A DNA stretch of 33,088 nt from Cyanophora paradoxa CCMP329 (taxonomy: Eukaryota > Plantae > Glaucophyta). Positions 1 through 33,088 of the stretch are shown one piece after another. The stretch covers positions 1 to 33,088 of the forward strand of contig QPMI01000077.1 in assembly GCA_004431415.1 (NCBI GenBank). The letters run 5' to 3'. The notes under the pieces were generated by a model that searched no databases, was not told the DNA's origin, and saw nothing but the letters and a program-made list of their open reading frames with translations. The position numbers and the translations under genes are program-made. Positions within the stretch are counted from its first letter, which is position 1. Every line of letters begins with the position of its first letter.

Positions 1-293
1 AAAAAATGGTATATTGGGCGTTCTGCCCCACAATACCATATATCGTCTCACATCTTATAGAATTTCATAAATCCTTACCATAACCGATTTTTCGATTCAT
101 TTGACACGATAATATACGGAATTTCTCGATTGTCGTACTTTGATCGAAAAAATACACCAAACCAACACCAAACCAACACCAAACCAACACCACACCAATA
201 CCAAACCAACACCACACCAATTCCCCACGTAATCCCACCGATTCAAAACCAAAATTTCATTTTCTTCGATTACCTGTATTCACCCTATCGAAT
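1..293 (+). repeat. Left terminal inverted repeat (293 bp)
   Basis: AAAAAATGGTATATTGGGCG...CACCCTATCGAAT is the reverse complement of 11123-11415. The A-run may be clipped by the window edge. Confidence 0.96.
154..220 (+). repeat. 11-bp tandem repeat (ACACCAAACCA, ~6 copies) inside the TIR; mirrored at 11196-11262
   Basis: Read directly: acaccaaacca acaccaaacca acaccaaacca acaccacacca ataccaaacca acaccacacca. Confidence 0.9.
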
Positions 294-335
294 ACGTTTT
301 AATCACATAAAGATTTATCTAAACTTCTGTTAAAA

Positions 336-674
336 ATGGAACCCAAACCAAAAGCAACCCGTTATTATATTGTCTCACGTTACGAGGATCGTAAAGAAGT
401 TAAACAAATGGGTGGTCGATGGGATCCGGATACTCACCTTTGGTATACAACCAAGAAAGACAGTGAATTACTCAAAAAGTTTAAACAACTTTCAAAAGAA
501 GAAGTAAAAGGAATCGATCAAATTGTATATATTACGGTTCCTTATAGCGAAAAAGAAGAAGCGAAACAATACGGCGCACGATGGGATAATGAAAATGGAA
601 CGTGGTTTATGCGTGGTATCCACCATAACGAGGTTTTCGAAAAATACAAACCGATTAAATTCATCGACGAGTAA
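336..674 (+). CDS. Small protein with two tandem DUF5710-like domains
   Basis: Two copies of the motif: YYIVSRYEDRKEVKQMGGRWDPDTHLWY and YITVPYSEKEEAKQYGARWDNENGTWF; ATG in AAAAATGG context. Confidence 0.85.
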   Translation: MEPKPKATRYYIVSRYEDRKEVKQMGGRWDPDTHLWYTTKKDSELLKKFKQLSKEEVKGIDQIVYITVPYSEKEEAKQYGARWDNENGTWFMRGIHHNEVFEKYKPIKFIDE

Positions 675-1716
675 GCCCGCTCCTTAAATTATACTTCTTT
701 CGAACTACAACCTTCCTATTTGGTTTAATCCCTTCTTTCGCTACTAATCTATTTACCTTTGTTGTTTTTCTAACTCTCTCTACGCGTTTCTGTGTGGGAA
801 TCTTAACAATTGCGTCCTTATCTACCTTCTGTAACTCGTTCATCTTAAAGTTTCTACGCACCTCTTTGGGAGTCTCTCCTTCGTTCTCTTCCAATAAACT
901 AAATCGATTACCTACTTTACCTGCTACCTTGTAAACCTGCTTCGTGTATCTTGCACCTTCCTTATCGAATACCTTCTTTTCTGTCACAGCACGAACATAA
1001 TCACCCTCTTTAAAAGTGGGCATCTGCTCCTTAATTCTCTTGTTATGCACAGCATCCCTGAAATATATGAACGACTGCTTTTCGTTATTACCATACACTG
1101 CATTGGTGAATCATTCTTTAAAGAAACATGAGGTGAATTATTGTAAGTCATTAAAACGTCTTTATAGTATTCTGTCCACTTTGGGTTTCCACTTGATGTA
1201 ATCGCCTTTCTTAAATATTGCTTGAATGTCCTTGTGAACCTATCGATAATCCCAATTTATCGCCTACTGTTATGTGGTCATTCTTAGCTACGTCTGTATA
1301 GAGTGTTACATTGTTCTCCTCACACCATTTACGATACATTTCAGCTGAAAACTCATTATCTCCTGCGATCGCATTCACCTTACCTGCTTCAACCTTGAAC
1401 CTATTGAGAATCTCTATTTTCGAGTCTCCATTTTGAATGGATACACGAACGCTTTACGACTCAATATGTCAATAAATCCCATCATCCTGTCGATTCCATT
1501 ATTTCCCGTTTTGTAGTTCTTGAAAAATATCACGTCCACCTGGAAGGAATTAGGCGGCGCTACTATTCTGAGAAATGTCTTCTGCTTTTTGGGTTTCTTA
1601 AAGATCTGGTCGATCTCTTGATTTTTAAAACGTTTCCGTAGTTCTTCTTCATCAAATTTAACACCATCATTAATTAGTTTCTGTCGATATTTGGTATAGC
1701 TAAGCACCTGATCCAT
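661..1716 (-). pseudogene. Retroviral-like (rve) integrase, broken by three 1-bp deletions (~352 aa restored)
   Basis: FQVDVIF...FIDILSRKAFVYP, then after frameshifts (~1418, ~1252, ~1103) IAGDNEF, KLGIIDRFTRTFK, W...VLMTYNNSPHVSL and FKEGDYVR...VFDKEGARYTKQVYKV. The frameshifts could be sequencing errors. Confidence 0.9.
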
Positions 1717-1724
1717 TTATATAT

Positions 1725-4700
1725 CTACTGGGTTTTTGTTTGCGGCACACTTAGCGAGCGATAGTGTCCAATCGCAAGAGTAGAATAGAGATCTTCACAG
1801 AGATACCTCTTAGTATCGAGCGCATTAAATGCCCGTTTCTTCATTTCCTGCGTTGTTACTTCGTGGTTCTTTGATCGGAAACCTCTAACTGTTACTTGCT
1901 CTTGCTCCTGCATTGGATTCATGACAGTGTTGTAGAATTGCTGGAACTCTAACCTATTCTGCACTACTGACCTCTGAACTCCCTTCAACTTTTTAACAGT
2001 TTTCTTCTCCGAATCTTTTTCGAGACCAAGAGCCTTCACATTCAACTCCTTCTTATAAGAATATGCCTTTGGCTTGTATCCCGCGAATCCTGTAACAATG
2101 TAATCGCTGCTGTCATCCTTGAACAACCCCGGAACCTTCTTATTCTTCGGGTTGTAGCACATGTGTGATTTACTGTAATCGGACTGATCGAACCAATGCG
2201 CGTCTGTATTCATATCCTTATAGATATCTTCGGTTTCGATCACGTAATACAGCGAATCGGTGTCTGTCATCAGAAGTCTCGCACGATCCTTACCATACTT
2301 CTCCATGATGTAATCGTAGTGGAACTCATACATGATCAGTTTCGAAAGATCCAAGATGGCTTGACCGACGAAAATTGGCTTGTCCAACGTAATGGAACCC
2401 TTGTAGAACTCAATGGCTGTGAGATTCTCATTAATGATCTTCATAGTCTTCAACAATGGGTTACCGTTGTGTTTGAGTTGCTTCTTTGGATCACAGCACA
2501 ACTTAATGTTACTGCGCTTCCTCACATTCTCCATAGTCTTACCGAAAACCGAGTTATTCATGAGTTTGTAAAAGTCCTTTTCGAAATCGTTTCGCGCCTG
2601 TGTCCTCAGTTTCGTGTTAAGGTCTATGTAAGGTTTCAACCATTCCGATTGATCGTAAATAACACCACGATGCACTTTCGTAACTTTCATGCCCTTCTTC
2701 ACGTAATACTGCAAGCTCTTGATGTGGAGGATGTAGTTCTTTTTGTCCATCAGATTCGGCACCAACTTACGAGTCTCTGGTAGCTTGTCCTCACCAATCA
2801 TTTCCAATTGCGTAGCTGAAAGCATTTCACGCGTAACTACAAGCGACTCAGGAGCTAACGGAAGATCGTTATGTAGATCGTGTAGATGGGGTGGATACTC
2901 TAAGTCAACCTCCAATGTCGCGCCTTGTTCTCCTTCTGAATCGAACCCCATGTAATCGAAATCATCTATGTTGTCAATCCACTCAAAGTAGCGGTAGGGA
3001 AGCTTGAAACTCATCGCCTTTCCATACAGATTATTTGCATCCCAAGGCATGATATACTTCGTCGGCTTCGATGAATCGTAAGACTCAATGTAGGGGTTGT
3101 TTGCCTCTCCGTATCGATTGAAATTGAAGAAACACCACACGAATTCCCATCTCAAAGAACCGATACATATCGGGGTCATAGAGTTGTTCTATCACAACTC
3201 CTGTATACTTCAACATTGCAAACCACGACAGGTGAGGTGCTGAGACGAAATGGATCGGGTCAATTTCGTATTGCTCATAGCAAACATTGCGGAATGTATC
3301 GAATACATCCGCAAGTAGCGCAACATCGGTAGCAAGGTAGATATCGTGATAGTCTCCGAGCGTCTTACACTTGAAAGCATTCCAAACCTTCACACAATGG
3401 GTGTAATCCTCATCGCTTATCGCTGTGTCGTTCAGTTTCGAGTAAAACGCATCTTTTGGTGGTAATTGCGTCTCATTGAGTTTTTCGAAACTGTCGAGGT
3501 AATCGTAAGGGAAATGTCCTTTTTTCATCAGTAGTTCACGCTGCTGTTTGGTGTATTTCATGGAATCACACCATTCGTTTGTGAACTTGAAATTGTCCTT
3601 TCCAAGATTCTTAACGAGACTGTCGAGACTGGAAGCCATGAAATTCAGAGAATCCAAGAACTTGTAAGCGCCAACATCAAACGTTACGAACTTTTCGAAA
3701 TTCTGCGCAATACAACGAATTTCACCACTGGTATTAGCGAAATCTTTCATTGCTTTGAGAATGTAATGACCATCGTAACCTTTCAGATTGTGGAAAATTA
3801 CGGGAATTTTTGGATTAATGCGACGTTTAAGGTTGCAAGTATTGCAAGCCGCCCCGAGATATTTACCTGTTGTGTGGTCATGATCGCGAACAGGTTTCTC
3901 TCCTATTCTGAAAGGACAACCACAGATATAACACGAGAAAGCGTTTTTGAAATCTTCCTTATCTTCGGAGGTCATTACCATTGGCTCAACAATTCGCAAC
4001 CTGTTGAGAAGGTCAGACTCCATTAAACGCAACGTTTGCATGAAATGCTCCGTAACCTCATCATCGTTCTCTGGGTTTTGCTTCCGATACAAGACCTGCT
4101 TAATGATCTCCCCATTGTGGATAACCATAACCTTGTATCCGCTGGGTATGTGTTTCTGGTATACCTCTGTGTTATCACCGCGTCTCTCTTGCACCTTTTG
4201 TAAGATACATTCGAAATCACCAACAATGAACATCGGATGTCTAACCGTCTTATCTATGTGTTCCCGTGGATTCCATCTAATATCTGAGTCAGGATCGGGC
4301 ATGGTATCAACTGTGGCATTTGGACGATCGTAGCACTTGTTGTATTTAATGTGATTTTCTAAGATTCTCTCAGCCGTGAAACCCCTCAAACACGCCTTAC
4401 AGTAATACTTTGTTCCGTGGTGTGAACTGGGAATGAGTCGTGACAGGCTGGAAATGTAACCGTAATGCATGGTGTCTGATTTCTCATCACCCCAAACAAG
4501 AATGTCAATGGTCTCATGTTGTCTGTTAGGGTCTTTGCATATGTGGATTGGAACAACACGGAGGCTTTTAGTTTCCTTATCCTCTTCGAGAGAGTATACA
4601 TTAATTGGACGTCCCACCATTTTAGAAGCCCTTTCGTATTCACGGGGGTTATTCTTCAATGGGAATTGGAAGCTATCCCAATTAAACTCCTTCTCATACT

Positions 4701-5697
4701 TCCTGTATCTCTTCACATCGTAACGGTGTTTATTGGATAGTTCATGGTGATGTAGTCCAATAATCACCGCCCATGCAAAGCACTTTTGGTCGTCGTTCTG
4801 TGGATTGATAACCGCCTTTTTCGCTTCTATCTCCTTGGGAAGCGGAATGTAAGAGCTACCGGCAATCGGCTGATACGTGAGAATTTGTAGCGAGAACTTT
4901 ATGATATTATCCAACTCACCACTGGGGTGTGATTCGAGAATTTCTTGTAGTTCGTCTACTGACTCATCCACAGTGTTTACGGTTTCGCGCTCATTCACGA
5001 TAAGGAAGTATCGTGTGGGAATTCCCGTATACATGTCGTATCCATATCTGCCCGTGTATCTTCCATTTTCTAAGAGCGGTTTCTTATAAATTGCGGTCAC
5101 GGTCAGATGGAACTTAATACCACGTCTATTCCTCACCGCTTCACGGAAACGACCGTAGAAAGCATTCCATCCTATTATCCTGTCGATGAACTCATGAACC
5201 GATGCTACTTTATTAGTTCTCTGATTCTTCCATGTGACCTCAACCACGAGATTATTCATGGCTTGCATAATTTCAATCTCATTGCGATATCTACGCTCCT
5301 TTGCCCATTCTTGCTTTGCCTTCTGTTTCTCAACATTCTTAGCGGCTCTCTCCGCTCTCTTCTCCTTCTTCTCTTGCTTCCTCTCCGCTCTCTTGTTCCG
5401 CTTCTCAGCGATCCGCTCCGCTTTGGTCTTCTTTTTCCCTTCTCCAATGTCTTCAATGTTACCGAGTCTACCTATTTCGTTCTGCTCATTCAGTCTCCCC
5501 TCACCTCTGCCGATTATGTCTTTGATTGAGTATCTTATGTCTCTCAGAGCATTCGACCGTGGTCTTTTCACGAAAGCAAAGTAACCGAATGCATTGAATT
5601 GCTCCACCGTCATAAAGTCATTTGCGAGGGCATACCCAAGATCAGCAAGTATAAGTCGTCTCTCCTTAGCGTTCTGAATACTAACAGCGCGAGGCAT
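1725..5697 (-). CDS. Protein-primed family B DNA polymerase (~1324 aa restored; frameshifted at ~3118-3138, seen as ORFs 3085-5697 and 1725-3179)
   Basis: GSSYIPLP...INPQNDDQKCF; C2H2-like finger; Exo I GDFEC; endonuclease VII-like CYIC..RDHDH..CNTCN; Exo II FHNLKGYD; FLDS; KGHFPYDY; Exo III YLATDV; Pol motifs DANNLYG, KLMNNSVFGK, TDTDS. Adding two bases restores GIRGGVSSISNRYGEANNPY. Confidence 0.95.
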
Positions 5698-5967
5698 CTC
5701 TTTGGCGTTCTATAATATATTCAAAGAAAATTATCCTTAAATCATTTTTTCACCTTAACGTCATTTTTTGTCCACGATTCTTTTTCGATTGCGGGCATTT
5801 CGTAAAAATAACAAAAGGGTCGACCATCAATTGGTGAATAGATCTTTTCGATTAAAGTACATCAATCGAGAAGTATCAAAATACGATGGTTCTAAAAATA
5901 ACACGAAGGGGTTTAGCGCGATTGCGCTTATTTGTCTTCTCAGAGCAAGCGCGCCGAGAAAAAAGAT

Positions 5968-6222
5968 TTAGATATATTTCGATGGGCGACCCACATTATT
6001 GTAGGGAACACCAAACAAGAACTTAACGAAACAGATCGCATTATTTGAATACGCTCTGTAACTTGCTTGAACTATCTTCATAGAGCGGTTGCATTCATCA
6101 GATTGATATAATTCGAATACCTTCTTGCGCATTTTCTCTTTGTTCTTTTGGAGGGCAATTTTGCCCTTACCGGTTGCCCGATAATTGGCATTCGCGCGCT
6201 TTTGGGCTGCACTGGTCGACAT
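5968..6222 (-). CDS. Small basic hypothetical protein (84 aa from ATG 6222)
   Basis: MSTSAAQKRANANYRATGKGK...; ATG in AAAATG context with an upstream ATTTAAAGAT/TATATA like that before the polymerase gene. Confidence 0.6.
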   Translation of the reverse strand: MSTSAAQKRANANYRATGKGKIALQKNKEKMRKKVFELYQSDECNRSMKIVQASYRAYSNNAICFVKFLFGVPYNNVGRPSKYI

Positions 6223-6568
6223 TTTGGCTATCACTGTTACTATATAGTGAGAAATCTTTAAATGGTTTTCTTCTTTGATATAAACCGCTTTTGAAAAGCT
6301 GTCATTTTTTGCCCCGCCGCATTGGAGCGCTGCGCATCCTTGTGAGACAAGATGCCGGAAAAATAAGCCGAAGGTCTCCGCCTCCACGTTTCTACGATTG
6401 AACCCCGTAGAACAGGTGATTAAAAAGAGTGATACATGGATATCACTACTTTCCTACAACGCCGCTTAGAAAAATAAGCAAACGTGAGCGCAAACTTTCG
6501 GAATGGAGGGTATTGCGCTATTCTTTGAAAAGAAAATTTTAACGTAAGAATGATGCATGAGCCGTCGC

Positions 6569-7250
6569 TTAACGCTTGTAGCCCGGGCGAATACCCAATT
6601 TAGCAAATCCGGAAAGCATCGGCGCTGCATTGGGAATGGAGTTAAGCGGGTCGGATTGCGATGTAGCAACCCTGAGGATAGATTTGTTAAGCACCGGTAA
6701 ATCTGTTTTATTGGATTCTTGGTAATCGATCGTCTTAGCGATTAATTCCGTCGGTGTGTGTTTCTCCTCTTTGATTGGATCGGGAAGGACATCAAACGTA
6801 ACATCGGGTTTCTTGTCTACCTTCTCTTTGGTTATCGGTTGCTCTGTTATCTTCTTCTCTTTCTGCGTCTCATCGGCGATTCCCTCAATGAGACTTTTAG
6901 CGTGTTTGTATGTGATCGTTTTCAGTCCACCGGTTGCTGCTCTGATAAAGTAGCGGTTGCGGTGGTCTTTTTCGGAATACGTGGAATAGAGACGTTCACC
7001 GCCATCGAGAAGTTTAAGAAGAGTTGACTTTTTATCGACCTTATCGATTGTCGCACTCTTAAATTGTCCTTTCTTAATCCCACGCTTTGCACCGGGCATA
7101 CGGTTTAGCGGCACTTGCTCAACTAAGGCGTTACCATCGTTAATGTCCTCTACTGGCGCCACAGCATGGGAATTAATCGTATTATTAATACTCTTATCAA
7201 TATCAGCGGTTCCGAATGCCGCGGTTCCTTTCGATTTCTTGTAATGCCTC
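6569..7250 (-). CDS. Hypothetical charged protein, 3' part (its 5' end lies inverted at 7662-7726; ~248 aa restored)
   Basis: Frame is open from 7252 to the stop at 6569 with no ATG near its 5' end; it joins in frame to MARKTQPKNFLAKPVEQAEPER when the inversion is reversed. Confidence 0.75.
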
Positions 7251-7726
7251 CGTTATACCGCTCGATCTTCTGTTTAATTCTTACATCCTTCTACATGTCG
7301 ATCCACTCAAAGGAAACTACGTAAGCAAGAATACCAGCGATGATAAAGCGCTTGCTAAAATTGAGATTGACCAGACGGTAGGTAGTCTCCTAAAATACGA
7401 TTCTTCCAATAACTCCATGATCATTCATGAGCAGAACGGATTAGTGGAAGTTGAGACGCTTAAAGTGCGTTTGACGTATTGGAATGGTAACGAAACCGAT
7501 ATAACAACGGATTGGTCGATGACTCTCGAACTGATCACGGAAGATGAAAAGGATCTTACGAAAGCAGCACTGAAAAACGTCATTAGAGATTTAGAAAACG
7601 TCTATTTACCGTTTGGTCGTAATATGTAATATTGCCGAATAATTTTGTGGGGTTATTTCAAATGGCTCGTAAGACACAACCCAAGAATTTCTTAGCGAAA
7701 CCCGTCGAACAAGCGGAACCGGAACG
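7251..7726. other. Inverted segment bounded by 4-bp inverted microhomology CGTT (7251-7254) / AACG (7723-7726)
   Basis: Reversal fuses two pairs of gene halves in frame at once. Confidence 0.88.
7255..7629 (+). CDS. Minor capsid (penton) protein, C-terminal part, inverted
   Basis: YILLHVD...LAKIEI...GSLLKY...LKVRLTYWNGNETDITTDWSMTLEL resembles C-termini of PLV/NCLDV minor capsid proteins. Confidence 0.8.
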   Translation: MPLDLLFNSYILLHVDPLKGNYVSKNTSDDKALAKIEIDQTVGSLLKYDSSNNSMIIHEQNGLVEVETLKVRLTYWNGNETDITTDWSMTLELITEDEKDLTKAALKNVIRDLENVYLPFGRNM

Positions 7727-8250
7727 CTGTCGAGGTAATGATTATAAGTAAAACCACCAACAGTAACAGGTGAACCAAGAGGGGTGGATGGATAACCTAA
7801 ACCCGAGCCATTAATTGATGGATCCGGGAAACCTAAGAAATTGGCTAAAATCTGACTACTGAAACGTATAGTAAATGTTGCTTCGCCAATAATCCTTAGT
7901 TTCATTGTGGTAGAGTCGTAAGACACATTGAAATGACGGGTATATGTAGTTCCCGATGCACTGTATGTCTGGGATAACAGTAGAGCATTTAGATAATTCA
8001 CCAAACTCTCTGCTGTGTATGCCCCTTTTGAAATTGTGTTTGATTTAGTTTTGGTTGCCCCTTGTCCATCGAGTGTGGATGTTACAAGCGCTCCGTTTTC
8101 GCTGAGATTGTAAATGTTATTGAACATTTCGAAATTGGTAACGCGACATGCTTTAACATTTTGGATTGCATGGGGAAGTTTGTATGAATAGTTTGTTGGG
8201 GTTCCATCGTCCCGATCCCGGGAATCAATATTTAGATAGTAACGCGTCAT
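7723..8250 (-). CDS. Minor capsid (penton) protein, N-terminal part (176 aa; 300 aa restored)
   Basis: YLNIDSRDRD..P.NYSYKLPHAIQNV, NNIYNL, ISKGAYTAESLVNYLN, LANFLGF: typical minor capsid motifs; divergent from MCP. Confidence 0.85.
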
Positions 8251-8302
8251 TCTGTTTAATAATGTAATTTAAAAATTTCTTTTCGTATTTTAAACAAAGG
8301 AC
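8251..8302. promoter_or_regulatory. 52-bp AT-rich divergent promoter region between mCP and MCP
   Basis: TTAAACA lies just upstream of each ATG in mirror orientation (8253-8259 minus, 8290-8296 plus). Confidence 0.45.
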
Positions 8303-9529
8303 ATGGCGCTTACTGGAACGACCCTTAAAGAACTCCTTGTTACTCCCGGATCGGATCAAATTTACCTATCTCCCGGTCTCCAAATTGGAACCAACCCCAA
8401 GTATAAGCCGTTCCTTGAACAGGTTCGCCCACGCGGTAACACTTTCGGGTTTAAGACGACCGCTTACTTTGATCTACCACGCAAGCAACTGCTTAGTGGC
8501 GTTTCGCTTTACTTTAAGGTTACTACCGGTGGTGGTGTTGCTTGTGATCTTCCCAATGGTGGTTCTTCTTTCATTAAAGAGGTTCGTTTTGTCCATGGTG
8601 GGTTCAAGTATATCATCCCTGGCGATTGGATCACTGTAAACACTCTGATCGATAATGATGTATCGGGACTGAGCGCTATGTATATGTCCCTTGGTCTCGG
8701 AGCGGAAGCTACCCGTGAATCTACCGACAAGTCGACTGAATATGTAGTTAAAATTCCGGCTGCTTTCTGGGACGATGCATATTTCCCCCTTTGCGTTCTT
8801 GCGGATATGCCCACCATCGAGGTAGATTTTCGCGAGGCTGCGGTAGTTAACGTTCCTGCTGGTGGAACTGTTACCGTGAGTGATTGCGGGCTAATCTGTC
8901 AATTCGTTAACATTGCTTCTGCGGAGGCTGAGACTCTCCTTAAAATGGCGAATGAACAGGGAGGTATTCGCATTCCAATTACGGAAGTCATCCACAAAAA
9001 GACCCGATCACTTAAAACTGCCGATTCTGGCGAGGCGGTCGAGGTTACACTGGCTAACGTTTCCGGTCTGGTGCATTCAATCCTTATGACTGTTCGTGAC
9101 GTTAACAAGCTGGACAAATACACTCATTCCGATTTCTACGGTGTTGGATCTGCTGTGAAAATCGATGAGTTCCAAATTTTCCACAACAACCGATCGCTTG
9201 AAATCTCTAATAAACCCATATCTGGTTTCCTTTCTGCTGCTAACCATATCCCATCGCATTACAAAGGTGCAACCGTAGGCAATGCTGGTTTTGGTTTCGA
9301 GAGTGGATGTGTCTATGGTGTTGTTCTCAGCAAGAATGGTAAGGATTCGCTCCATAATTCAGTCATGGGTTATCAGGACTTCTTCAATAGTTCGAGTTCG
9401 TATATGGATCTGACCGTTTCCGGTTGCACTGATGCTGCACCGGTTCAGGTCGACATTTTCGCGCTCCGTCACAATGTCATGGTTCTCAATGGCTATAACA
9501 TTTCGACACTGAAAGTTTCCAACTTTTAA
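8303..9529 (+). CDS. Double jelly-roll major capsid protein (408 aa), NCLDV-like
   Basis: GSDQIYL..., FGFKTTAYFDLPRKQLLSG, FIKEVRFVHGG..IPGDWI, VKIPAAFW..FPLCVL..IEVDFR, VDIFALRHNVMVLNG; located between mCP and ATPase. Confidence 0.85.
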   Translation: MALTGTTLKELLVTPGSDQIYLSPGLQIGTNPKYKPFLEQVRPRGNTFGFKTTAYFDLPRKQLLSGVSLYFKVTTGGGVACDLPNGGSSFIKEVRFVHGGFKYIIPGDWITVNTLIDNDVSGLSAMYMSLGLGAEATRESTDKSTEYVVKIPAAFWDDAYFPLCVLADMPTIEVDFREAAVVNVPAGGTVTVSDCGLICQFVNIASAEAETLLKMANEQGGIRIPITEVIHKKTRSLKTADSGEAVEVTLANVSGLVHSILMTVRDVNKLDKYTHSDFYGVGSAVKIDEFQIFHNNRSLEISNKPISGFLSAANHIPSHYKGATVGNAGFGFESGCVYGVVLSKNGKDSLHNSVMGYQDFFNSSSSYMDLTVSGCTDAAPVQVDIFALRHNVMVLNGYNISTLKVSNF

Positions 9530-9659
9530 AAGTTCTTTTCTTTCTTTAAAGTAGGAAGCCTGCGAATCGCGTATAGGTTAGCGCTTTAGCGGCAAGCAAA
9601 GCATGCCTTGTGCATGCACTTTTGTTTTTTATCTTATTACTGTAACGGACAACGTAGTA

Positions 9660-10412
9660 ATGGAGATCGACCTTGATGATATTCCCGAATTCGACCCTGC
9701 AAGGACAGCTAAACTCCCTTCGCGTTTTTTGCTTGCCGGACGCTCCAACTCTGGTAAGACAACTTATTGTAAGTATCTACTCTATGAACTGCGGGATAAG
9801 ATCGATCAGATTGTAATATTTAGTTCCACTGCGTTTACTGGGCAATTCAGAGATATAACCCACCCCGATAATATATATGAGGAATGGGATGATAATGTGG
9901 TGGTGAAACTCATTAGCATGCAAAAGAAACGAATCGAGAACAATGAGAAGAGGAATAGTTTAGTTATTATACTTGATGATATGATAGGTTCTAATTTGGA
10001 TATGCATAATTCAGCTGTGTTATCTAAATTGGTAACGAGTGGACGCCATTATGGTATCACAGTTATATTTAACGTTCAGCGTTTATGCTCTATTTCTACT
10101 ACCATTCGTCGTAATGTGGAGTTCGTCGTATTTTTCAATATTCTTGGGAACGAGAAAGAGTTTAATTGTGCATACGATGAATATAATGGTGGATTGGATA
10201 AGAAGACTTACAAAGAGTTACATAAAATGTGGGGCTACAATTACCAAACAGTTATAACTGGATTGCAAGGGTATGATATAAAGACCTATACAGACCGTGC
10301 GATTTTGACAGATGATGATATGAAAGGATTTCGCAAGTTTGTGAAGCGACGAGCCTTTAAAAAGAGAGTTTCGATGCAAATTAGTAATGAACCCACTACG
10401 ATTACGGTGTAG
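9660..10412 (+). CDS. A32-like (FtsK/HerA) genome packaging ATPase
   Basis: Walker A GRSNSGKT, Walker B LVIILDD, GRHYGI arginine motif, Q...IRRN. ATG 9660 preferred over 9603. Confidence 0.93.
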   Translation: MEIDLDDIPEFDPARTAKLPSRFLLAGRSNSGKTTYCKYLLYELRDKIDQIVIFSSTAFTGQFRDITHPDNIYEEWDDNVVVKLISMQKKRIENNEKRNSLVIILDDMIGSNLDMHNSAVLSKLVTSGRHYGITVIFNVQRLCSISTTIRRNVEFVVFFNILGNEKEFNCAYDEYNGGLDKKTYKELHKMWGYNYQTVITGLQGYDIKTYTDRAILTDDDMKGFRKFVKRRAFKKRVSMQISNEPTTITV

Positions 10413-10786
10413 TTGTGAAGAGCTTAACATGAGCATTCCGGCGACGTTTTCAGATTTAATAGGCGATGATCTGGCGAAGAGTTACGATGCTTTAAAGATG
10501 CCGACACGCGAAACGACGATGTATATATATGCGCATATATACACTTTTTTCACCGGAAATTCCGTATGGGTCAACCGGGAATTCGGAGGTTTTAGGTATA
10601 TATGAGGTATATATGTCTTGTTTTTTTCGCATATGACGACATATACATATATGTCCTCGCGTCACCGACATATTCGGGGTCATCACATTGCGGCGATCAC
10701 GAAAACATATAGTATGCATGGAAGTGTAATTTTATTTTTTTTCCGGTGTTCCACCAATAGCGAATCGGTTACGAAATGTCGTAGCC

Positions 10787-10882
10787 CTATGCGTTACGAA
10801 ATAGTGTAGCCCGATGCGTTACGCGTTACGAAAAAAAGTCTATGCGTTACTATTTAACGTATCCCGATGCGTTACGCGTTAC
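10787..10882 (+). repeat. Cluster of six GCGTTAC motifs arranged with a 53-bp period
   Basis: CCCGATGCGTTACGCGTTAC at 10810 and 10863; CTATGCGTTAC at 10787 and 10840. Confidence 0.85.
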
Positions 10883-10927
10883 TAAAATTTAAAATAATAA
10901 TAAGTTTTGCATTCATGGGAGACACTC

Positions 10928-10990
10928 GACAAGCCCTAGACAAGCCCTAGACAAGTCCTAGACAAGCCCTAGACAAGCCCTAGACAAGTC
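10928..10990 (+). repeat. 11-bp tandem repeat (GACAAGCCCTA, ~5.7 copies)
   Basis: Read directly from the sequence. Confidence 0.92.
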
Positions 10991-11122
10991 GGGACAAATC
11001 GATTTTCGACCAATCAAAAAATACCCACTTGAAACTCAATCAAACACCTGTAACTTTTCACCAACTGCTCCGTTTTCGATTCTGAAAAAAGATTCGGAAT
11101 CGTCGCGTTGCGCTCTGTCAGG

Positions 11123-11415
11123 ATTCGATAGGGTGAATACAGGTAATCGAAGAAAATGAAATTTTGGTTTTGAATCGGTGGGATTACGTGGGGAATTGGT
11201 GTGGTGTTGGTTTGGTATTGGTGTGGTGTTGGTTTGGTGTTGGTTTGGTGTTGGTTTGGTGTATTTTTTCGATCAAAGTACGACAATCGAGAAATTCCGT
11301 ATATTATCGTGTCAAATGAATCGAAAAATCGGTTATGGTAAGGATTTATGAAATTCTATAAGATGTGAGACGATATATGGTATTGTGGGGCAGAACGCCC
11401 AATATACCATTTTTT
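11123..11415 (-). repeat. Right terminal inverted repeat (293 bp)
   Basis: Reverse complement of 1-293; ends ...CCCAATATACCATTTTTT. Confidence 0.96.
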
Positions 11416-14400
11416 TGCATATTCCCCCAGAGAGATTTGGGGTGCATCCATCTTCTATTTTGTGGCGGATCAGAAACCTGGGGCCTTTAACTGAGTGATT
11501 TGCTGGTGGGTGGGTTCATCTTCCTAAGGCTAGCGCCTTGTGCATATTCCCCCAGAGAGATTTGGAGTGCATCCATCGTCTATTTTGCGGCGGATCAGAA
11601 ACCTGGGGCCTTTGACTGAGTGATTTGCTGGTGGGTGGGTTCATCTGCCTAAGGCTAGCGCCTTGTGCATATTCCCCCAGAAAGAGTTGGAGTGCATCCA
11701 TCTTCTATTTTGTGGCGGATCAGAAACCTGGGGCCTTTGACTGAGTGGCTTGCTGGTGGGTGGGTTCATCTTCCTGAGGCTAGCGCTTTGTGCAGATTCC
11801 CCCAGAGAGATTTGGGGTGCATCTTTCTTGTTTCTTGTGGCGGATCGGAAACCTGTGGCCTTTGATTGAGTGGCTTGCTGGTGGGTGGGTTCATCTTCCT
11901 GAGGCTAGCGCCTTGTGCATATTCCCCCAGAGAGATTTGGAGTGCATCCATCTTCTATGTTGCGGCGGATCAGAAACCTGGGGCCTTTAACTGAGTGATT
12001 TGCTGGTGGGTGGGTTCATCTGCCTAAGGCTAGCGCCTTGTGCATACTCCCCCAGAAAGATTTGGAGTGCATCCATCTTCTATTTTGTGGCGGACCAGAA
12101 ACCTGGGGCCTTTGACTGAGTGGCTTGGTGGGTGGGTTCATCTTCCTGAGGCTAGCGCCTTGTGCAGATTCCCCCAGAAAGATTTGGAGTGCATCCATCT
12201 TCTATTTTGTGGCGGATCGGAAACCTGGGGCCTTTGACTGAGTGGCTTGCTGGTGGGTGGGTTCATCTGCCTAAGGCTAGCGCCTTGTGCATATTCCCCC
12301 AGAAAGATTTGGGGTGCATCCATCTTCTTTTTTGTGGCGGATCAGAAACCTGGGGCCTTTGACTGAGTGGCTCGCTGGTGGGTGGGTTCATCTGCCTAAG
12401 GCTAGCGCCTTGTGCATATTCCCCCAGAGAGATTTGGAGTGCATCCATCTTCTATTTTGCGGCGGATCAGAAACCTGGGGCCTTTAACTGAGTGATTTGC
12501 GGGTGGGTGGGTTCATCTGCCTAAGGCTAGCGCCTTGTGCATATTCCCCCAGAAAGATTTGGAGTGCATCCATCTTCTATTTTGTGGCGGATCAGAAACC
12601 TGGGGCCTTTGACTGAGTGGCTTGCTGGTGGGTGGGTTCATCTTCCTGAGGCTAGCGCCTTGTGCAGATTCCCCCAGAGAGATTTGGGGTGCATCTTTCT
12701 TGTTTTTTGTGGCGGATCGGAAACCTGGGGTCTTTGACTGAGTGATTTGCTGGTGGGTGGGTTCATCTTCCTGAGGCTAGCGCCTTGTGCAGATTCCCCC
12801 AGAGAGATTTGGGGTACTTCTTTCTTCAATTTTGTGGCGAATCAGAAACCTGGGATCTTTGACTGAGTGATTTGCTGGTGGGTGGGTTCATCTTCCTAAG
12901 GCTAGCGCCTTATGCATATTCCCCCAGAGAGGTTTTGGGTACTTCTTTATTCAATTTTGTGGCGAATCAGAAACCTGGGATCTTTGACTGAGTGACTTGC
13001 TGGCGGGTGGGTTCATCTGCCTAAGGCTAGCTCCTTGTGCATATTCCCCCAGAGAGATTTGAGATGCATCCATCTTCTATTTAGTGGCAGATCGGAAACC
13101 TGGGGCCTTTGACTGAGTGATTTGCTGGTGGGTGGGTTCATCTTCCTAAGGCTAGCGCCTTGTGCATATTCCCCCAGAAAGATTTGGAGTGCATCCATCT
13201 TCTATTTTGTGGCGGATCAGAAACCTGGGGCCTTTGACTGAGGTTCATCTTCCTGAGGCTAGCGCCTTGTGCAGATTCCCCCAGAGAGATTTGGGGTGCA
13301 TCTTTCTTGTTTTTTGTGGCGGATCGGAAACCTGTGGCCTTTGATTGAGTGGCTTGCTGGTGGGTGGGTTCATCTTCCTGACGCTAGCGCCTTAGGCATA
13401 TTCCCCCAGAGAGGTTTTGGGTACTTCTTTCTTCTATTTTGTGGCGGATCCGAAACCTGGGATCTTTGACTGAGTGACTTGCTGGCGGGTGGGTTCATCT
13501 TCCTAAGGCTAGCGCCTTGTGCATATTCCCCCAGAGAGATTTGGGGTGCATCCATCTTCTATTTTGTGGCGGATCAGAAACCTGGGGCCTTTAACTGAGT
13601 GATTTGCTGGTGGGTGGGTTCATCTTCCTAAGGCTAGCGCCTTGTGCATATTCCCCCAGAAAGATTTGGAGTGCATCCATCTTCTATTTTGTGGCGGATC
13701 AGAAACCTGGGGCCTTTGACTGAGGTTCATCTTCCTGAGGCTAGCGCCTTGTGCAGATTCCCCCAGAGAGATTTGGGGTGCATCTTTCTTGTTTTTTGTG
13801 GCGGATCGGAAACCTGTGGCCTTTGATTGAGTGGCTTGCTGGTGGGTGGGTTCATCTTCCTGACGCTAGCGCCTTAGGCATATTCCCCCAGAGAGGTTTT
13901 GGGTACTTCTTTCTTCTATTTTGTGGCGGATCCGAAACCTGGGATCTTTGACTGAGTGACTTGCTGGCGGGTGGGTTCATCTTCCTAAGGCTAGCGCCTT
14001 GTGCATATTCCCCCAGAGAGATTTGGGGTGCATCCATCTTCTATTTTGTGGCGGATCAGAAACCTGGGGCCTTTAACTGAGTGATTTGCTGGTGGGTGGG
14101 TTCATCTTCCTAAGGCTAGCGCCTTGTGCATATTCCCCCAGAAAGATTTGGAGTGCATCCATCTTCTATTTTGTGGCGGATCAGAAACCTGGGGCCTTTG
14201 ACTGAGTGGCTTGCTGGTGGGTGGGTTCATCTTCCTGAGGCTAGCGCCTTGTGCAGATTCCCCCAGAGAGATTTGGGGTGCATCTTTCTTCTTTTTTGTG
14301 GCGGATCAGAAACCTGGGGCCTTTGACTGAGTGGCTTGCTGGCGGGTGGGTTCATCTTCCTGAGGCTAGCGCCTTATGCATATTCCCCCACAGAGGTTTT

Positions 14401-16873
14401 GGGTACTTCTTTCTTCAATTTTGTGGCGAATCAGAAACCTGGGATCTTTGACTGAGTGACTTGCTGGCGGGTGGGTTCATCTTCCTAAGGCTAGCGCCTT
14501 GTGCATATTCCCCCAGAGAGATTTGAGATGCATCCATCTTTAATTTAGTGGCAGATCGGAAACCTGGGGCCTTTGATTGAGTGGCTTGCTGGTGGGTGGG
14601 TTCATCTTCCTAAGGCTAGCGCCTTGTGCATATTCCCCCAGAGAGATTTGAGATGCATCCATCTTCTATTTTGCGGCGGATCAGAAACCTGGGGCCTTTA
14701 ACTGAGTGGCTTGCTGGTGGGTGGGTTCATCTTCCTAAGGCTAGCGCCTTGTGCATATTCCCCCAGAGAGATTTGGGGTGCATCCATCTTCTTTTTTGTG
14801 GCGGATCAGAAACCTGGGGCCTTTAACTGAGTGATTTGCTGGTGGGTGGGTTCATCTTCCTAAGGCTAGCGCCGTATGCATATTCCCCCAGAGAGGTTTT
14901 GGGTACTTCTTTCTTCAATTTTGTGGCGAATCAGAAACCTGGGATCTTTGACTGAGTGACTTGCTGGCGGGTGGGTTCATCTGCCTAAGGCTAGCGCCTT
15001 GTGCATATTCCCCCAGAGAGATTTGAGATGCATCCATCTTTAATTTAGTGGCAGATCGGAAACCTGGGGCCTTTGATTGAGTGGCTTGCTGGTGGGTGGG
15101 TTCATCTTCCTAAGGCTAGCGCCTTGTGCATATTCCCCCAGAAAGATTTGGAGTGCATCCATCTTCTATTTTGTGGCGGATCAGAAACCTGGGGCCTTTG
15201 ACTGAGTGGCTTGCTGGCGGGTGGGTTCATCTTCCTAAGGCTAGCGCCTTGTGCATATTCCCCCAGAGAGATTTGGGGTGCATCCATCTTCTATTTTGTG
15301 GCGGATCAGAAACCTGGGGCCTTTAACTGAGTGATTTGCTGGTGGGTGGGTTCATCTTCCTAAGGCTTGCGCCTTGTGCATATTCCCCCAGAAAGATTTG
15401 GAGTGCATCCATCTTCTATTTTGTGGCGGATCAGAAACCTGGGGCCTTTGACTGAGTGGCTTGCTGGCGGGTGGGTTCATCTTCCTAAGGCTAGCGCCTT
15501 GTGCATATTCCCCCAGAGAGATTTGGGGTGCATCCATCTTCTATTTTGTGGCGGATCAGAAACCTGGGGCCTTTAACTGAGTGATTTGCTGGTGGGTGGG
15601 TTCATCTTCCTAAGGCTAGCGCCTTGTGCATATTCCCCCAGAAAGATTTGGAGTGCATCCATCTTCTATTTTGTGGCGGATCAGAAACCTTGGGCCTTTG
15701 ACTGAGTGGCTTGCTGGTGGGTGGGTTCATCTTCCTGAGGCTAGCGCCTTGTGCAGATTCCCCCAGAGAGATTTGGGGTGCATCTTTCTTCTATTTTGTG
15801 GCGAATCAGAAACCTGGGGCCTTTGACTGAGTGGCTTGCTGGTGGGTGGGTTCATCTTCCTGAGGCTAGCGCCTTGTGCATATTCCCCCAGAAAGATTTG
15901 GAGTGCATCCATCTTCTATTCAGTGGCGGATCGGAAACCTGGGGCCTTTGACTGAGTGACTTGCTGGCGGGTGGGTTCATCTTCCTAAGGCTAGCGCCTT
16001 GTGCATATTCCCCCAGAGAGATTTGAGATGCATCCATCTTCTATTTAGTGGCGGATCAGAAACCTGGGGCCTTTAACTGAGTGGCTTGCTGGCGGGTGGG
16101 TTCATCTTCCTAAGGCTAGCGCCTTGTGCATATTCCCCCAGAGAGATTTGGGGTGCATCCATCTTCTATTTTGTGGCGGATCAGAAACCTGGGGCCTTTA
16201 ACTGAGTGATTTGCTGGTGGGTGGGTTCATCTTCCTAAGGCTAGCGCCTTGTGCATATTCCCCCAGAAAGATTTGGAGTGCATCCATCTTCTATTTTGTG
16301 GCGGATCAGAAACCTGGGGCCTTTGACTGAGTGGCTTGCTGGTGGGTGGGTTCATCTTCCTGAGGCTAGCGCCTTGTGCATATTCCCCCAGAAAGATTTG
16401 GAGTGCATCCATCTTCTATTTAGTGGCGGATCGGAAACCTGGGGCCTTTGACTGAGTGACTTGCTGGCGGGTGGGTTCATCTGCCTAAGGCTAGCGCCTT
16501 GTGCATATTCCCCCAGAGAGATTTGAGATGCATCCATCTTCTATTTAGTGGCGGATCAGAAACCTGGGGCCTTTAACTGAGTGGCTTGCTGGTGGGTGGG
16601 TTCATCTTCCTGAGGCTAGCGCCTTGTGCATATTCCCCCAGAAAGATTTGGAGTGCATCCATCTTCTATTTAGTGGCAGATCGGAAACCTGGGGCCTTTG
16701 ACTGAGTGATTTGCTGGTGGGTGGGTTCATCTTCCTAAGGCTAGCGCCTTGTGCATATTCCCCCAGAGAGATTTGGGGTGCATCTTCCTTCTATGTTGTG
16801 GCGGATCGGAAACCTGGGGACTTTGACTGAGTGGCTTGCTGGTGGGTGGGTTCATCTGCCTAAGGCTAGCGCC
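11416..16873 (+). repeat. Satellite A, 125-bp unit, about 44 copies
   Basis: Unit ...GGCTAGCGCCTTGTGCATATTCCCCCAGAGAGATTTGG...GGTGGGTGGGTTCATCTTCCTAA; 125-bp spacing of the spurious ORFs; one 122-bp and two 107-bp variants. Confidence 0.97.
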
Positions 16874-20340: not shown

Positions 20341-20653
20341 GTTGGCGCCCGCGCCCGAGAGTGGGCCTGCGGCCCCCGGACCTGTAAGGAAGTCTGCGCC
20401 GCCTGCGACGGGCCGATTCGCCTTCACAATCTACTCAACGCCGCTCGGAATGCAGACTGCCCACTGGACTACGCAGGCTGGAAGGTGGCGCTCCGCGCCC
20501 AAGAGCTCTACGATTGCGTCAAGGTATACCCTTGGGAGTCACATCCTAGCCCGCTCTAAACGGTACCCCGAATCACGTGAAAGGGGGGGGGGGGGGGGCT
20601 ACGTCGGGAGGAGACTCTCAACACCACCTACCTACTACTTCACCATACCTAGT

Positions 20654-23600
20654 GGAAGCGCAAGCCCACGAGACTGTTGCGGTCATCGCTCGTAAGCAAC
20701 TGACAGCGCAAGAGGCCTGCTACATCGTCGAAGCCGTCGTGCAGGCCCGGATCGCGTACGGGCTCAAGGTGGTGCCAATGTCGGAAGCCCAGTGCGACCG
20801 GATGGACGCCATCTGCAGCTGGCTGCAAGTAGTTAAGCACCACGGTGGACTAGCGGCGTCGACGTAGAACTACGCGCTCTGGAGCCACGGCACGTATCGC
20901 CTCCCGCGCACGGCGCACCTAATGGCCAAGAACCAGATCACGGACCTGCTTGCGCGGCTCTGCGGCGAGCCTGATGAGCTGCTAGCTCAGGTGATGGCCC
21001 ACCGCGTTCGCGCCCTCCAGCGAAAGCTAGGCGTGCCGCTGCTGCCGACAGAGTTTCTGAACGTGCACGTTACGCCCCAACTCGCGAAGGCCAACACGAT
21101 CGCCGCTGTGATGCCGCTGCTGCAGCGCCACCAGTACAGGATCCAATGGAACCACGCACGCTACCTGAATGCTCCGTACCCCCCATGGGAGTGGAGTACC
21201 CTGGTCCCAGCCGGCAGAACTCCTGCGTGAGTACGTCTTGGCGACTCATATCCCCAAAGACATCTTCAAAGACGCTGCTCCTGCCCTCTACGCTGCCGGC
21301 ATGTACTGGATGTCCTCTGTCACGGCGCCCGACGGCGAGCGCCTTTGCACTTGGCGGGACCTGCACCTCTGCGCCCCCCGCAACACCTTGCCCTGGGCTG
21401 CCCCTCCCTGGTGGAAACCTCTTGCCGAGGCCCTGATGGCGGACTCCAGCGACACCTTGCCCTGGGCTGCTCCTCCCTGGTGGAAAACCCTCTCGAAGGC
21501 CCTGACGCTCGACTCCAGCGGCAAGGGTGTCCTTCGGTACCCGATGAGGCAGCCCCCCGGTACCCCCCCCTCAGCCATGGTGCAGCTGCCAGGCGGAGCT
21601 AAGAAATACATTCACCGACCGGACGACTTCGTCTGCCTCTTCGACCTAGCGACCATTCATGATGCAGCGATACCGCCCCACGTAGGACGCCTCTGTACGG
21701 CGGAGTCCGAGCCGGGCCGCCTCGTTGCGACGGAATGCTGGCTCGAACACTGGATCCCTGTCCCGGAAGAAGCGGACCCGGTCGCCGACGGTGCCTACTG
21801 CCGCTGCGATGGGCACTGTCAGCACGAAATCCGGGAGCCGCCCCTTGCGCAGCGCCACTACAATATCATACCCGGGGAGGGTCGGCGGCACTGGCACGAC
21901 GATCACACCTGCCCGCGGGCCGCCAGCGCGGCGTGCCGCGCGACGAGCACCTGCAACGACGCAGGGGAGCACGGTACTTCGATTGGGGGCTGGACCGAAC
22001 ATGCCGCCGCGCTGGGAGCCGTACCTGGCGCCCTGTCGACTGCTGCGATCAGCAACGTGCCCGCGGCCGAATGTGAGGGCCAGGTCGCTACCCGTTCAGG
22101 CGGCGCCAGCCGCAAAGTCCTGCGCCAAGGTTTACTCGAATACTTTCACCCCGGGTGGACCGCGGCAGTGGCGATGGACGCGCACCGGTGGCGGATGCTG
22201 CTGCAAGCCAGGCAGGAGGGGGACGAGCGCGTTCAATGGCACCTCCTCTTGCCCGAGGATGCCGCCCGCCTCGCCGAGCTGGAAGCGGACCCGCCGGAAC
22301 CGCTGCACCTGCTGCAAAACAAGGCGGTTCCGATTACCTCTAGGCAGGCTCGGAAATACTACTACACACTGAGGGACGAGGACTCCTGGGCGACCTTTCT
22401 GCAGGCGTGGGATAGACTGGAGGAGAACCTCCGCCGCGACCTGTGGGCAGCTGAAGCCACGTCGGACGGGACCTACGAGGCGGCCGCGCCGGCCCAAGCC
22501 TGGACGGACGGGAGCCTGCAGGACGGTCAGACGAGCCTAGCGCGCGGGGCTTATGCGGTTCACTGGCCCGCGCGCCACCTGCGCACTGATGCGAGCCTCC
22601 ACCCGCTGGAAGTCTTTCCGCCTGAGTGGGATGCAGGAGATCAATAAAGCGGAATTGCAGGCAGTGATTACGGCGGACATACTTCCCCGTTTGGAGCCGT
22701 CGTCCACATCGACAAGCAGAACGCGATCCGCTGGTGTAAGGAATTCGTTCTCGACGCCGCCCAGCATAGCCCGCGGGAGTACATCCGGCACGTCTGCTCT
22801 GCCGAACTGTACGCATGGCGTCAACTCAGGGCCCAACTAGATATGAGGGGGTGGCCGCTCACGCTGGTGAAAGTGAAGGTGCACGCGCAAGGCGAAGCGC
22901 GCAACCCGCACAATGACATCGCCGATGCTCTTGCAAATCGCACAGCCGGCGAACAACTACCAGCAGAGAGCCTACAAGAGCCTGTCTTCCTGCCGCCGGA
23001 GTTTAGCATGCCAGCCGTCCTCACAATCGGTAACGGGGACGGCACCGTGCGACGGGTGGAAGGCGACCCGAAAGAGCACATGGACACCTTGCATGAGCAT
23101 CACATGCACTTCGCTTGGGCTCAACAACTACTGGCTGGAGCGTTTCTACGCCGCGGAGACGCCGGGGCAGACATCGGCGGGCTGTACGTGGAGACAGCTG
23201 TAGGACCCAGGTTCCGCAGCGCAAGCGGGGCTCGCAACGCGCTCTTCAAGTTCAGGACCCAACTGCTCTGCAGCTCGCTTCCAGCGAACGAAGTCCAGGT
23301 ACGGGATAGGCCCGACCTTTACGCAGCCTACAACCCCGGCGGCGGCTGCGCGGCCTGCGCTACGAGGACGCCGCGTGCCCGGCGGGATCGCGCGAACCCG
23401 CCTGAGGCGGGCGAGCAGCCCGTGCAGGCCGGCCCCAGCAGACAGCGCGAGGTGCCGACAGCTCTCACTGCGGGCCCAGCGGAGACTTTCACACACGTCT
23501 TTCTATGCCCGGGCCCCCATGCAGTGACACACCGCGCGGAGACCGCTTGAGCTCTGAGTCGCCTCCTGCAGTGCGCCCACCGCGAGACCCACAGACTTCA

Positions 23601-24162
23601 ACTCAAGAACATTGATCCCACGCTAGTGCTCGCCTCTGGACTCGTGCCCACCTACTTGCGCGTAGCCGACGATGACGCCGAAGCGCGCAGCTCCGACGAC
23701 CGCCCGACCACGTACTTGCGGCTTTGGATACTCCAAGGTGTTGCCCCGCAGTCGCTCGAGCGGGACTTGATCCGAGCCCTCAACCTCGACCCGCGCCGCA
23801 CGCCGCGCACCGCCAAGCGCATGCGCCAGATGCTGATCGAACGCGAGCGTCGGCTCTGGGCCAGCCGGTGCAAGATCAACGCAACATGGGAACGAGACTG
23901 TCGCATCTCTCAAGCCTCTAAACGTCGCCCGCGCCCACCCCGCACAGGAGCTAGAGCTAAAGAACGTGCCCGCGGACCCCGTGTCCTGATAGAGCTCTGT
24001 CCCGCCTGTGACGGGCCCATCCACCTTCATAACGACCTTCGCGTAGCCCAGAACGCCGACTGCCCGCCAGAGTACACCGGATGGAAAGCGGCACTTCGAG
24101 CCCAAGAGATCTACGATACCACCAAGGTCCGCCCCTGGAGTTCGTCACCCCCGGATAATTAG
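20654..24162 (+). pseudogene. Non-LTR ORF2 C-terminal half: RT thumb/tether, RNase HI, CCHC-type zinc motif; stops and frameshifts
   Basis: RKQLTAQEACYIVEAVVQARIAYG; AWTDGS..., INKAELQAV, LVKVKVHAQG..NDIADALA (RNase H); LP...RPDLY...CAAC...ETFTHVFLCP; stops at 20865, 22838, 23548; 60-bp internal duplication (TLPWAAPPWWK). Confidence 0.82.
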
Positions 24163-32600: not shown

Positions 32601-33088
32601 AGGGGGAACATGCACGAGGCGCTAGCCTTAGGCAGGTGCACCCAGCCCAGCAGAGGACTACTAAGAGGCTCTGCCCTTCCAAGTGGGAGCCCCATTGAGT
32701 GTTTGGGGACTTGCATGTTTCCTGGGTTCACTCCTTCTTAGCCCTGGTCAGTTTGAATTCCCGTTGGGCCCACAACAGCAAGGTCAGGTGCACACAAACA
32801 CTTTCCAGGGGGAACATGCACAAGGCGCTAGCCTTAGGCAGGTGCACCCTGCCCAGCAGAGGCCCTTTAAGAGGCTCTGCCCTTCCAAGTGGGACCCCCA
32901 CCTAGTGTTTGGGGACTTGCATGTTTCCTGGGTTCACTCCTTCTTAGCCCTGGTCAGTTTGAATTCCCGTTGGGTCCACAACAGCAAGGTCAGGTGCACA
33001 CAAAACTTTCCAGGGGGAAAATGCACAAGGCGCTAGCCTTAGGCAGATGCACCCAGCCCAGCAGAGGACTACTAAGAGGCTCTGCCTT
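26665..33088 (+). repeat. Satellite B, ~206-bp unit with length variants, about 31 copies, runs off the window end
   Basis: Unit ...GGGGAACATGCACAAGGCGCTAGCCTTAGGCAGGTGCACCC...GAGTGTTTGGGGACTTG...GAATTCCCG...; 206- and 214-bp spacings. Confidence 0.97.

What the first reader, a model, noticed from the sequence alone, without database searches (positions are those of the whole stretch)
7251..7726. An internal inversion switches off two viral genes; flipping it restores both exactly in frame
The mCP N-half is on the minus strand (8250-7723) and its C-half on the plus strand (7255-7629). Inverting between CGTT (7251-7254) and AACG (7723-7726) gives ...YNHYLDSV-IPLDLLFNSYILLHVD... (300 aa). The same flip joins ATG 7662 (MARKTQPKNFLAKPVEQAEPER) to RHYKKSKGTAAFG... 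of the headless ORF ending at 6569 (248 aa). No bases are gained or lost. It could be a one-off microhomology-mediated lesion, an assembly artefact, or a reversible latency switch controlling virion formation; no invertase is encoded, so a switch would need another recombinase.
Basis: partly seen in the sequence, partly recalled or inferred. Interest (0 to 1): 0.85.

Follow-up and report, generated by a model that had tools for sequence, protein, structure and literature searches.

The report
One-off inversion in a Polinton copy
In one copy of a virus-like element in a eukaryote's genome a 468-base piece lies back to front and cuts two genes in half; public sequencing data hold this flipped junction but mostly the unflipped form, so it is most likely a one-off repair accident rather than an on/off switch.

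Summary
The inversion is real; the switch idea is not supported. The window holds an 11.4-kb Maverick/Polinton-type element (293-nt terminal inverted repeats, pPolB, rve integrase, A32 ATPase, penton, putative MCP). A profile of 35 natural penton relatives, chosen on the N piece alone, matches the minus-strand piece at positions 1-135 and the plus-strand piece at 150-241 (E 2e-8). The window's right junction occurs letter for letter in 2 of 4 public DNA runs (2012, 2024), which argues against an assembly error. The collinear arrangement occurs in 4 of 4 runs and in diverged subfamilies at about ten times the depth, so the inverted state is the derived minority. Against a switch: the shared core is only 4 bp, its four arms are no more alike than chance, a sister copy differs at 2 of the 4 core bases, no recombinase was found in 35 frames, and this copy's polymerase and integrase are also frameshifted. 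That both genes are cut 'cleanly' follows from any balanced inversion and is not separate evidence. Best reading: a recent microhomology-mediated inversion in one copy of a multicopy family. Whether both orientations occur at one locus is untested.

The parts
7251..7254 (.). left 4-bp microhomology core (CGTT)
7723..7726 (.). right 4-bp microhomology core (AACG); junction seen as an exact 56-nt contig in 2 of 4 public runs
7255..7722 (+). inverted segment, 468 bp: 3' part of the penton gene, spacer, first codons of ORF2
7723..8250 (-). penton (minor capsid protein) N piece, 176 aa; in the window it runs on into a 38-aa unrelated tail (ORF 8250-7606)
7255..7629 (+). penton C piece, 124 aa, profile positions 150-241
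7662..7751 (+). ORF2 start, 22 codons up to the core, then a stop after 29 aa
6569..7249 (-). ORF2 C piece, 226 aa, lysine-rich, no family found; 7 of 7 listed variable sites at third codon positions
8303..9529 (+). putative major capsid protein, 408 aa, open; identity inferred from size and position only
9603..10412 (+). A32-type packaging ATPase, open
   Evidence: PF04665, E 1.9e-15
1725..5697 (-). protein-primed DNA polymerase B in two frames, break between 3139 and 3116
   Evidence: 106 of 120 relatives span the break in two frames
661..1716 (-). rve integrase in four pieces, three changes of frame
1..293 (.). left terminal inverted repeat (window begins in or at it)
11123..11415 (.). right terminal inverted repeat, 100% complementary to the left; abuts a 125-bp satellite

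Best explanation
A 468-bp segment is inverted in this copy of a multicopy Maverick/Polinton-type element and splits its penton gene and the next gene, most likely as a recent one-off event in which two breaks or a double template switch were joined at a chance 4-bp microhomology, which would leave the copy unable to make a whole penton. Shown: the split, the junction in independent sequence data, the collinear form in sister copies. Inferred: microhomology-mediated end joining or template switching as the cause (host repair, or the element's own replication before insertion); the collinear form as ancestral; loss of function; neutral inheritance afterwards among many collinear copies.
For: Split penton shown by profile without joining. 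Window's right junction in 2 of 4 runs, exact 56 nt, the length expected for a contig made only of the 26 31-mers that cross the core. Collinear penton junction in 4 of 4 runs. Opposite-strand joints that fit the collinear order in diverged subfamilies: 7240/7702 in 4 of 4 runs (depth 1565, 1672, 494, 71), 7251/8087 in 3 of 4, 7357/8216 in 2 of 4, against 131.9 (X1) and 4.8 (X4) for the inverted junction. Collinear copy identical to the window over 26 + 30 letters at the junction, so the event is recent. Core of 4 bp or more at 1.7% of random cut pairs; arms match 1-3 of 8, 2-4 of 13, 4-7 of 20, all p >= 0.24. A sister copy differs at 2 of 4 core bases, and its three differences near the penton break all fall on third codon positions (X1 and X3; read by eye). 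33 of 37 listed variable sites in the four coding pieces are at third positions, so the family is constrained as protein, not as a DNA site. Polymerase and integrase also broken. Junctions with 1-6 bp microhomology, some with no base lost, are the common signature of non-recurrent inversions in humans (PMC7702065, passages).
Against: The crossing contig has 26 letters beyond the core on each side, below the tool's 31-letter rule for bridging; one of the two runs may be the assembly's own source. The left junction in the window's orientation was not examined. The inverted junction is missing from X2 and X3 and its depth against the identical collinear junction differs (131.9:69.4 in X1, 4.8:5.0 in X4); depth is not copy number and contigs drop rare paths, so this is unexplained. 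The frameshifts were not checked in reads and can be polishing errors in multicopy elements (PMC10120064, passages). The variable sites are the 39 best-supported places of 568 rows, not a random sample. The molecular pathway cannot be told from sequence.
Confidence: 0.87

Rival explanations
1. The segment is a reversible switch flipped by a host or helper recombinase, turning penton and ORF2 off and on.
For: Both orientations with identical flanks occur in the same run (X1, X4); their relative depth differs between runs and the inverted one is not listed in X2, X3. One event cuts two adjacent genes.
Against: Only 4 bp shared, arms unrelated; the characterised intragenic thiC inverton has an 11-position repeat (PMC10028968, passages); core altered in a sister copy and the deepest subfamily does not align between 7241 and 7702 across the ORF2 point; no recombinase in 35 frames; inverted junction not seen on diverged backgrounds; polymerase and integrase of this copy frameshifted. 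Paralogs or alleles explain both orientations in one run.
Confidence: 0.04
2. The inversion is an assembly or library artefact of a multicopy repeat.
For: Not listed in 2 of 4 runs; several of the window's letters are in no contig of the four runs (7593, 8297, 8299, 9220); multicopy elements are prone to false consensus (PMC10120064, passages); left junction unexamined.
Against: Exact junction contig in two samples twelve years apart, at depth 131.9 and 4.8, similar to or above the identical collinear junction in the same runs; the downstream piece in X1 (200) equals the sum of the two (131.9 + 69.4).
Confidence: 0.04
3. The inversion arose once but is kept or amplified because the truncated penton or a defective copy is useful (interference with active copies), or its halves are rejoined as RNA as at the C. 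elegans eri-6/7 locus.
For: Inverted junction is about twice as deep as the identical collinear one in X1; the N piece has an open 214-aa frame and the C piece sits in a 137-aa frame with its own ATG; trans-splicing rescues an inversion-split gene in C. elegans (PMC11414722, passages).
Against: Minority of the family by depth, not listed in two runs; the break separates the N-terminal from the C-terminal strands of the penton fold (inferred); eri-6/7 needs about 930-bp flanking direct repeats and introns, none noticed here (not searched for specifically).
Confidence: 0.05

Closest known systems
Maverick/Polinton elements and Polinton-like viruses of eukaryote genomes (PMC10120064, PMC12220804; passages)
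   Same: Terminal inverted repeats, pPolB with an endonuclease VII motif, rve integrase directly after pPolB as in three related viral contigs, A32 ATPase, penton, many divergent copies per genome.
   Different: 11.4 kb, below the 14-40 kb quoted; no cysteine protease found; putative MCP has no detected relative; this copy is broken by an inversion and frameshifts.
Non-recurrent inversions formed by MMEJ/NHEJ or MMBIR (PMC7702065; passages)
   Same: Short microhomology at the junctions, no longer repeat, balanced, gene-disrupting.
   Different: Those are cytogenetically visible human events; this is 468 bp inside an endogenous virus copy, with one 4-bp core serving both junctions.
Bacterial invertons, including intragenic ones, and phage invertase systems (PMC10028968; passages; Hin/Gin/Cin recalled)
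   Same: An invertible-looking segment with ends inside coding sequence; both orientations present in one sample.
   Different: No inverted-repeat sites beyond 4 bp, no recombinase, core not conserved, eukaryotic multicopy setting in which paralogs explain the two orientations.
C. elegans eri-6/7 locus (PMC11414722; passages)
   Same: One gene split by inversion into halves on opposite strands, polymorphic between strains, Polintons involved.
   Different: There a host gene is inverted between Polinton repeats and rescued by trans-splicing through long direct repeats; here the element's own genes are cut at a 4-bp microhomology and no rescue is evident.

Membership tests
Maverick/Polinton | protein-primed DNA polymerase B | tested here: met
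   PF03175; 3062 relatives, named ones include an adintovirus PolB; split in two frames in this copy
Maverick/Polinton | rve integrase | tested here: met
   Three rve-type ORFs of related contigs (2 of 3 above the Pfam cut-off) match 1689-829 over changing frames; no direct Pfam hit on the pieces
Maverick/Polinton | terminal inverted repeats of several hundred bp | tested here: met
   293 nt, 100%
Maverick/Polinton | target site duplication | not testable with these tools
   window begins at the left repeat; no genome held
Maverick/Polinton | A32 packaging ATPase and penton | tested here: met
Maverick/Polinton | double jelly-roll major capsid protein | tested here: inconclusive
   no relative found; single-sequence model pLDDT 28
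Maverick/Polinton (classical animal type) | adenain-like cysteine protease | tested here: not met
   no Pfam hit in 35 of 35 frames of 80 aa or more; feature recalled
Inverton / invertase switch | pair of inverted recombination sites longer than a chance match | tested here: not met
   4 bp only; arms at chance level
Inverton / invertase switch | site-specific recombinase | tested here: not met
   0 of 35 frames of the element; host genome not searchable
Inverton / invertase switch | sites conserved among related copies | tested here: not met
   sister copy differs at 2 of 4 core bases in X1 and X3
Inverton / invertase switch | both orientations at one locus in clonal material | tested here: inconclusive
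   both junction types in X1 and X4, but contigs of 56 nt cannot be tied to a locus
Microhomology-mediated balanced inversion | 1-6 bp microhomology and no longer homology at the junctions | tested here: met
   range from PMC7702065 passages
Microhomology-mediated balanced inversion | no gain or loss against the uninverted form | tested here: met
   collinear contigs meet both cores without added or missing letters (penton point 4 of 4 runs, ORF2 point 1 of 4 listed)
eri-6/7-type trans-spliced split gene | long flanking direct repeats and fused mRNA | not tested
   no RNA run laid; one search showed only the 20 largest direct-repeat families

The most novel reading that the evidence does not exclude
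The 468-bp segment flips back and forth at one locus, giving a eukaryotic endogenous DNA virus a phase-variable switch over its penton and a neighbouring gene without dedicated recombination sites; the differing inverted-to-collinear depth among samples (about 2:1, 1:1, and none listed twice) would be its trace.
Probability: 0.04. Interest if true: 0.85.

Novelty: new member of a known kind. Interest (0 to 1): 0.17.

Why it matters
As a lesion it matters little: it is one documented case of how a young Maverick/Polinton copy is inactivated, and it shows that not all breaks in such elements are assembly errors, a point left open in PMC10120064. It could serve as a marker for one copy or strain. 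A reversible inversion controlling virion genes would be new for these viruses (no paper held both 'Polinton' and 'internal inversion'; none held 5 of 6 switch terms), but the evidence points away from it.

Tried and rejected
No own genome is held, so copies could not be counted or placed. Searches for close relatives found none: MCP in viral contigs and proteins, ATPase in viral contigs, penton N piece among proteins and metagenome contigs, P0039 in viral contigs; the penton alignment had no stretch conserved enough for a locus search. MCP model unusable (pLDDT 28), so no fold search was run on it. PHROGs gave only weak hits; two integrase pieces gave no PDB hit. Host group is not established: the flanking retroelement-like ORF gave only weak Atlas leads to fungal clusters (0.90-0.93, recognition below threshold), while named pPolB relatives come from animals at 38-50% identity. 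Depth arithmetic on whether X2 and X3 truly lack the inverted copy was mixed: two neighbouring contigs are 4.0-4.5 times deeper in X1 than in X3 against about 3.2-3.3 for two others, but the remainder carrying the window's letter at 7570 gives 3.1; rejected as undecidable. No CpG depletion in the element (o/e 0.94-1.56). Earlier scan notes: nothing near, by sequence or by the first words; 8 notes on other Polintons did not bear on this. Supplements of the papers were not read.

Full report
Setting. Bases 1-11415 form one element bounded by 293-nt, fully complementary terminal repeats and followed by a 125-bp satellite. It encodes a pPolB (PF03175 and an endonuclease VII motif), an A32 ATPase (PF04665, E 1.9e-15) and a DUF5710 protein. 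Three related viral contigs carry pPolB followed by an rve-type ORF, and these ORFs match window 1689-829. The 408-aa ORF at 8303-9529 is a capsid protein only by size and position: no relative was found and its model is unusable. The element works like a Maverick/Polinton; I file it in that broad group, with the major capsid untested and no protease found. No genome is held and the host group is not established.

The observation. CGTT (7251-7254) and AACG (7723-7726) are reverse complements and the match ends at once on both sides. The four gene pieces lie as described. Their profile covers the N piece at positions 1-135 and the plus-strand C piece at 150-241 (27.8 bits, E 2e-8); the best of 1000 shuffles scored 8.5 bits, and of 183 blind frames only the two holding these pieces passed 4.2 bits. 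The profile hits PBCV-1 P1v1 (E 4e-22) and a penton protein (E 1e-12), and the model of one relative (pLDDT 92.8) matches the mavirus penton (E 7.5e-10), then Sputnik and adenovirus pentons. So one penton gene is in two halves on opposite strands. ORF2 has no known family, but 7 of 7 listed variable sites in it are at third codon positions, as are 33 of 37 over the four coding pieces (these are the 39 best-supported places of 568 rows).

Is it real? Twenty of 24 listed runs of one organism hold the stretch, 16 with half of its words or more. Four were laid, all as assembled contigs. Hundreds of contigs of graded identity cover the region, as for a multicopy, diverged family. On 7678-7772, runs X1 (2024) and X4 (2012) each hold a 56-nt contig identical to 7697-7752, at depth 131.9 and 4.8. 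That is exactly the span of the 26 31-mers that contain both 7722 and 7727 (word length 31 taken from the tool text). X2 (6 of 6 records shown) and X3 (8 of 8) do not list it; contigs show presence, not absence. The left junction in the window's orientation was not examined.

Which state is ancestral? In 4 of 4 runs a contig reaches 7723 from the exact reverse complement of 7255-7280 (depth 69.4, 136.5, 20.8, 5.0), and X4 lists a loose end after 7726 that matches the reverse complement of the stretch ending at 7250 at 29 of 30 letters (read). Diverged subfamilies give opposite-strand joints that fit the same collinear order: 7240/7702 in 4 of 4 runs (1565, 1672, 494, 71), 7251/8087 in 3 of 4, 7357/8216 in 2 of 4; 15 of 20 joints were shown and no other opposite-strand joint was among them. 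Depth is not copy number, but the collinear form is spread over several backgrounds and is about ten times deeper, whereas the inverted junction was seen only on the window's own background. The inversion is therefore derived, and recent, since a collinear copy is identical on both sides of the junction.

Switch or accident? A balanced inversion loses no bases, so its clean fit to both genes is one fact, not two. A shared core of 4 bp or more occurs at 1.7% of random cut pairs in this element, which mildly favours a microhomology-guided join, but 5,547 inverted 4-mer pairs exist in 6569-8250. The four arms around the cores match each other at chance level (all p >= 0.24), so neither paired repeats nor dyad sites are present; the thiC inverton has an 11-position repeat (PMC10028968, passages). 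A sister copy in X1 and X3 differs at 2 of the 4 core bases, and all three of its nearby differences lie on third codon positions of the penton frame (by eye), so the core is not kept as a DNA site. None of 35 frames of 80 aa or more hits a recombinase family. The copy has other breaks: 106 of 120 pPolB relatives span a change of frame between 3139 and 3116 and the integrase changes frame three times. These were not checked in reads, and such breaks can be polishing errors in multicopy elements (PMC10120064, passages).

Mechanism. Most likely two breaks 0.47 kb apart were rejoined at the 4-bp match, or a replication fork switched template twice, in the host chromosome or during the element's own replication. 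Short microhomology with little or no loss is the usual signature of such inversions (17 of 25 junctions NHEJ or MMEJ, 1-6 bp, PMC7702065, passages). The products would be a penton lacking its C-terminal strands with a 38-aa foreign tail, a 29-aa ORF2 stub, and two orphan 3' pieces (loss of function inferred). What stays unexplained is the differing depth of the inverted junction among runs; strain differences, alleles and assembler drop-out are all possible.

Literature. Seven searches. None returned a report of an internal inversion or an invertible switch in a Polinton; 'inversion' does not occur in the main text of PMC10120064 or PMC12220804. The nearest case is the C. elegans eri-6/7 locus, a host gene split by a Polinton-linked inversion and rescued by trans-splicing (PMC11414722, passages). 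I saw search listings and passages only, no whole texts or supplements.

Verdict. Observation confirmed, interpretation partly supported. A real, recent, minority inversion that disables one copy of a multicopy element (0.87); reversible switch 0.04; artefact 0.04; retained for a function 0.05. Interest 0.17.

Noticed in passing
window 8303-9529 (+): The putative major capsid protein has no relative at E <= 0.001 among 6353 candidates of the 5.8-billion protein search and none in viral contigs, although the element's pPolB is a common type; 13 of 14 listed variable sites are at third positions. It may mark an undescribed capsid group.
   Followed up: partly
window 3116-3139 (-) and 661-1716 (-): pPolB is split by one change of frame and the integrase by three; not checked against reads.
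   Followed up: partly
window 11416-16873 and 26665-33086: Two satellites (125-bp unit, about 44 copies; 206-bp unit, 31 copies) share an inverted 83-nt stretch at 77-80% and are CpG-poor (o/e 0.34, 0.26) while the element and the GC-rich middle are not.
   Followed up: no
window 20560-24160 (+): Broken retroelement-like sequence with an RNase H-like part (weak Atlas lead); two ORFs ending at 20559 and 24162 have similar C-terminal ends, suggesting a duplicated 3' end.
   Followed up: partly
window 154-220, 11196-11262, 10768-10988: An 11-bp tandem repeat inside each terminal repeat, and further 25/53-bp and 11-bp tandems just inside the right end.
   Followed up: no
window 336-674 (+): Two-domain DUF5710 protein just inside the left terminal repeat; a similar ORF lies upstream of pPolB in L002.
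   Followed up: no
L001:3897-4772 (-): A related Polinton-like viral contig encodes a Tet/JBP-like oxygenase (PF12851, E 2.6e-7, below the curated cut-off) next to its ATPase.
   Followed up: no
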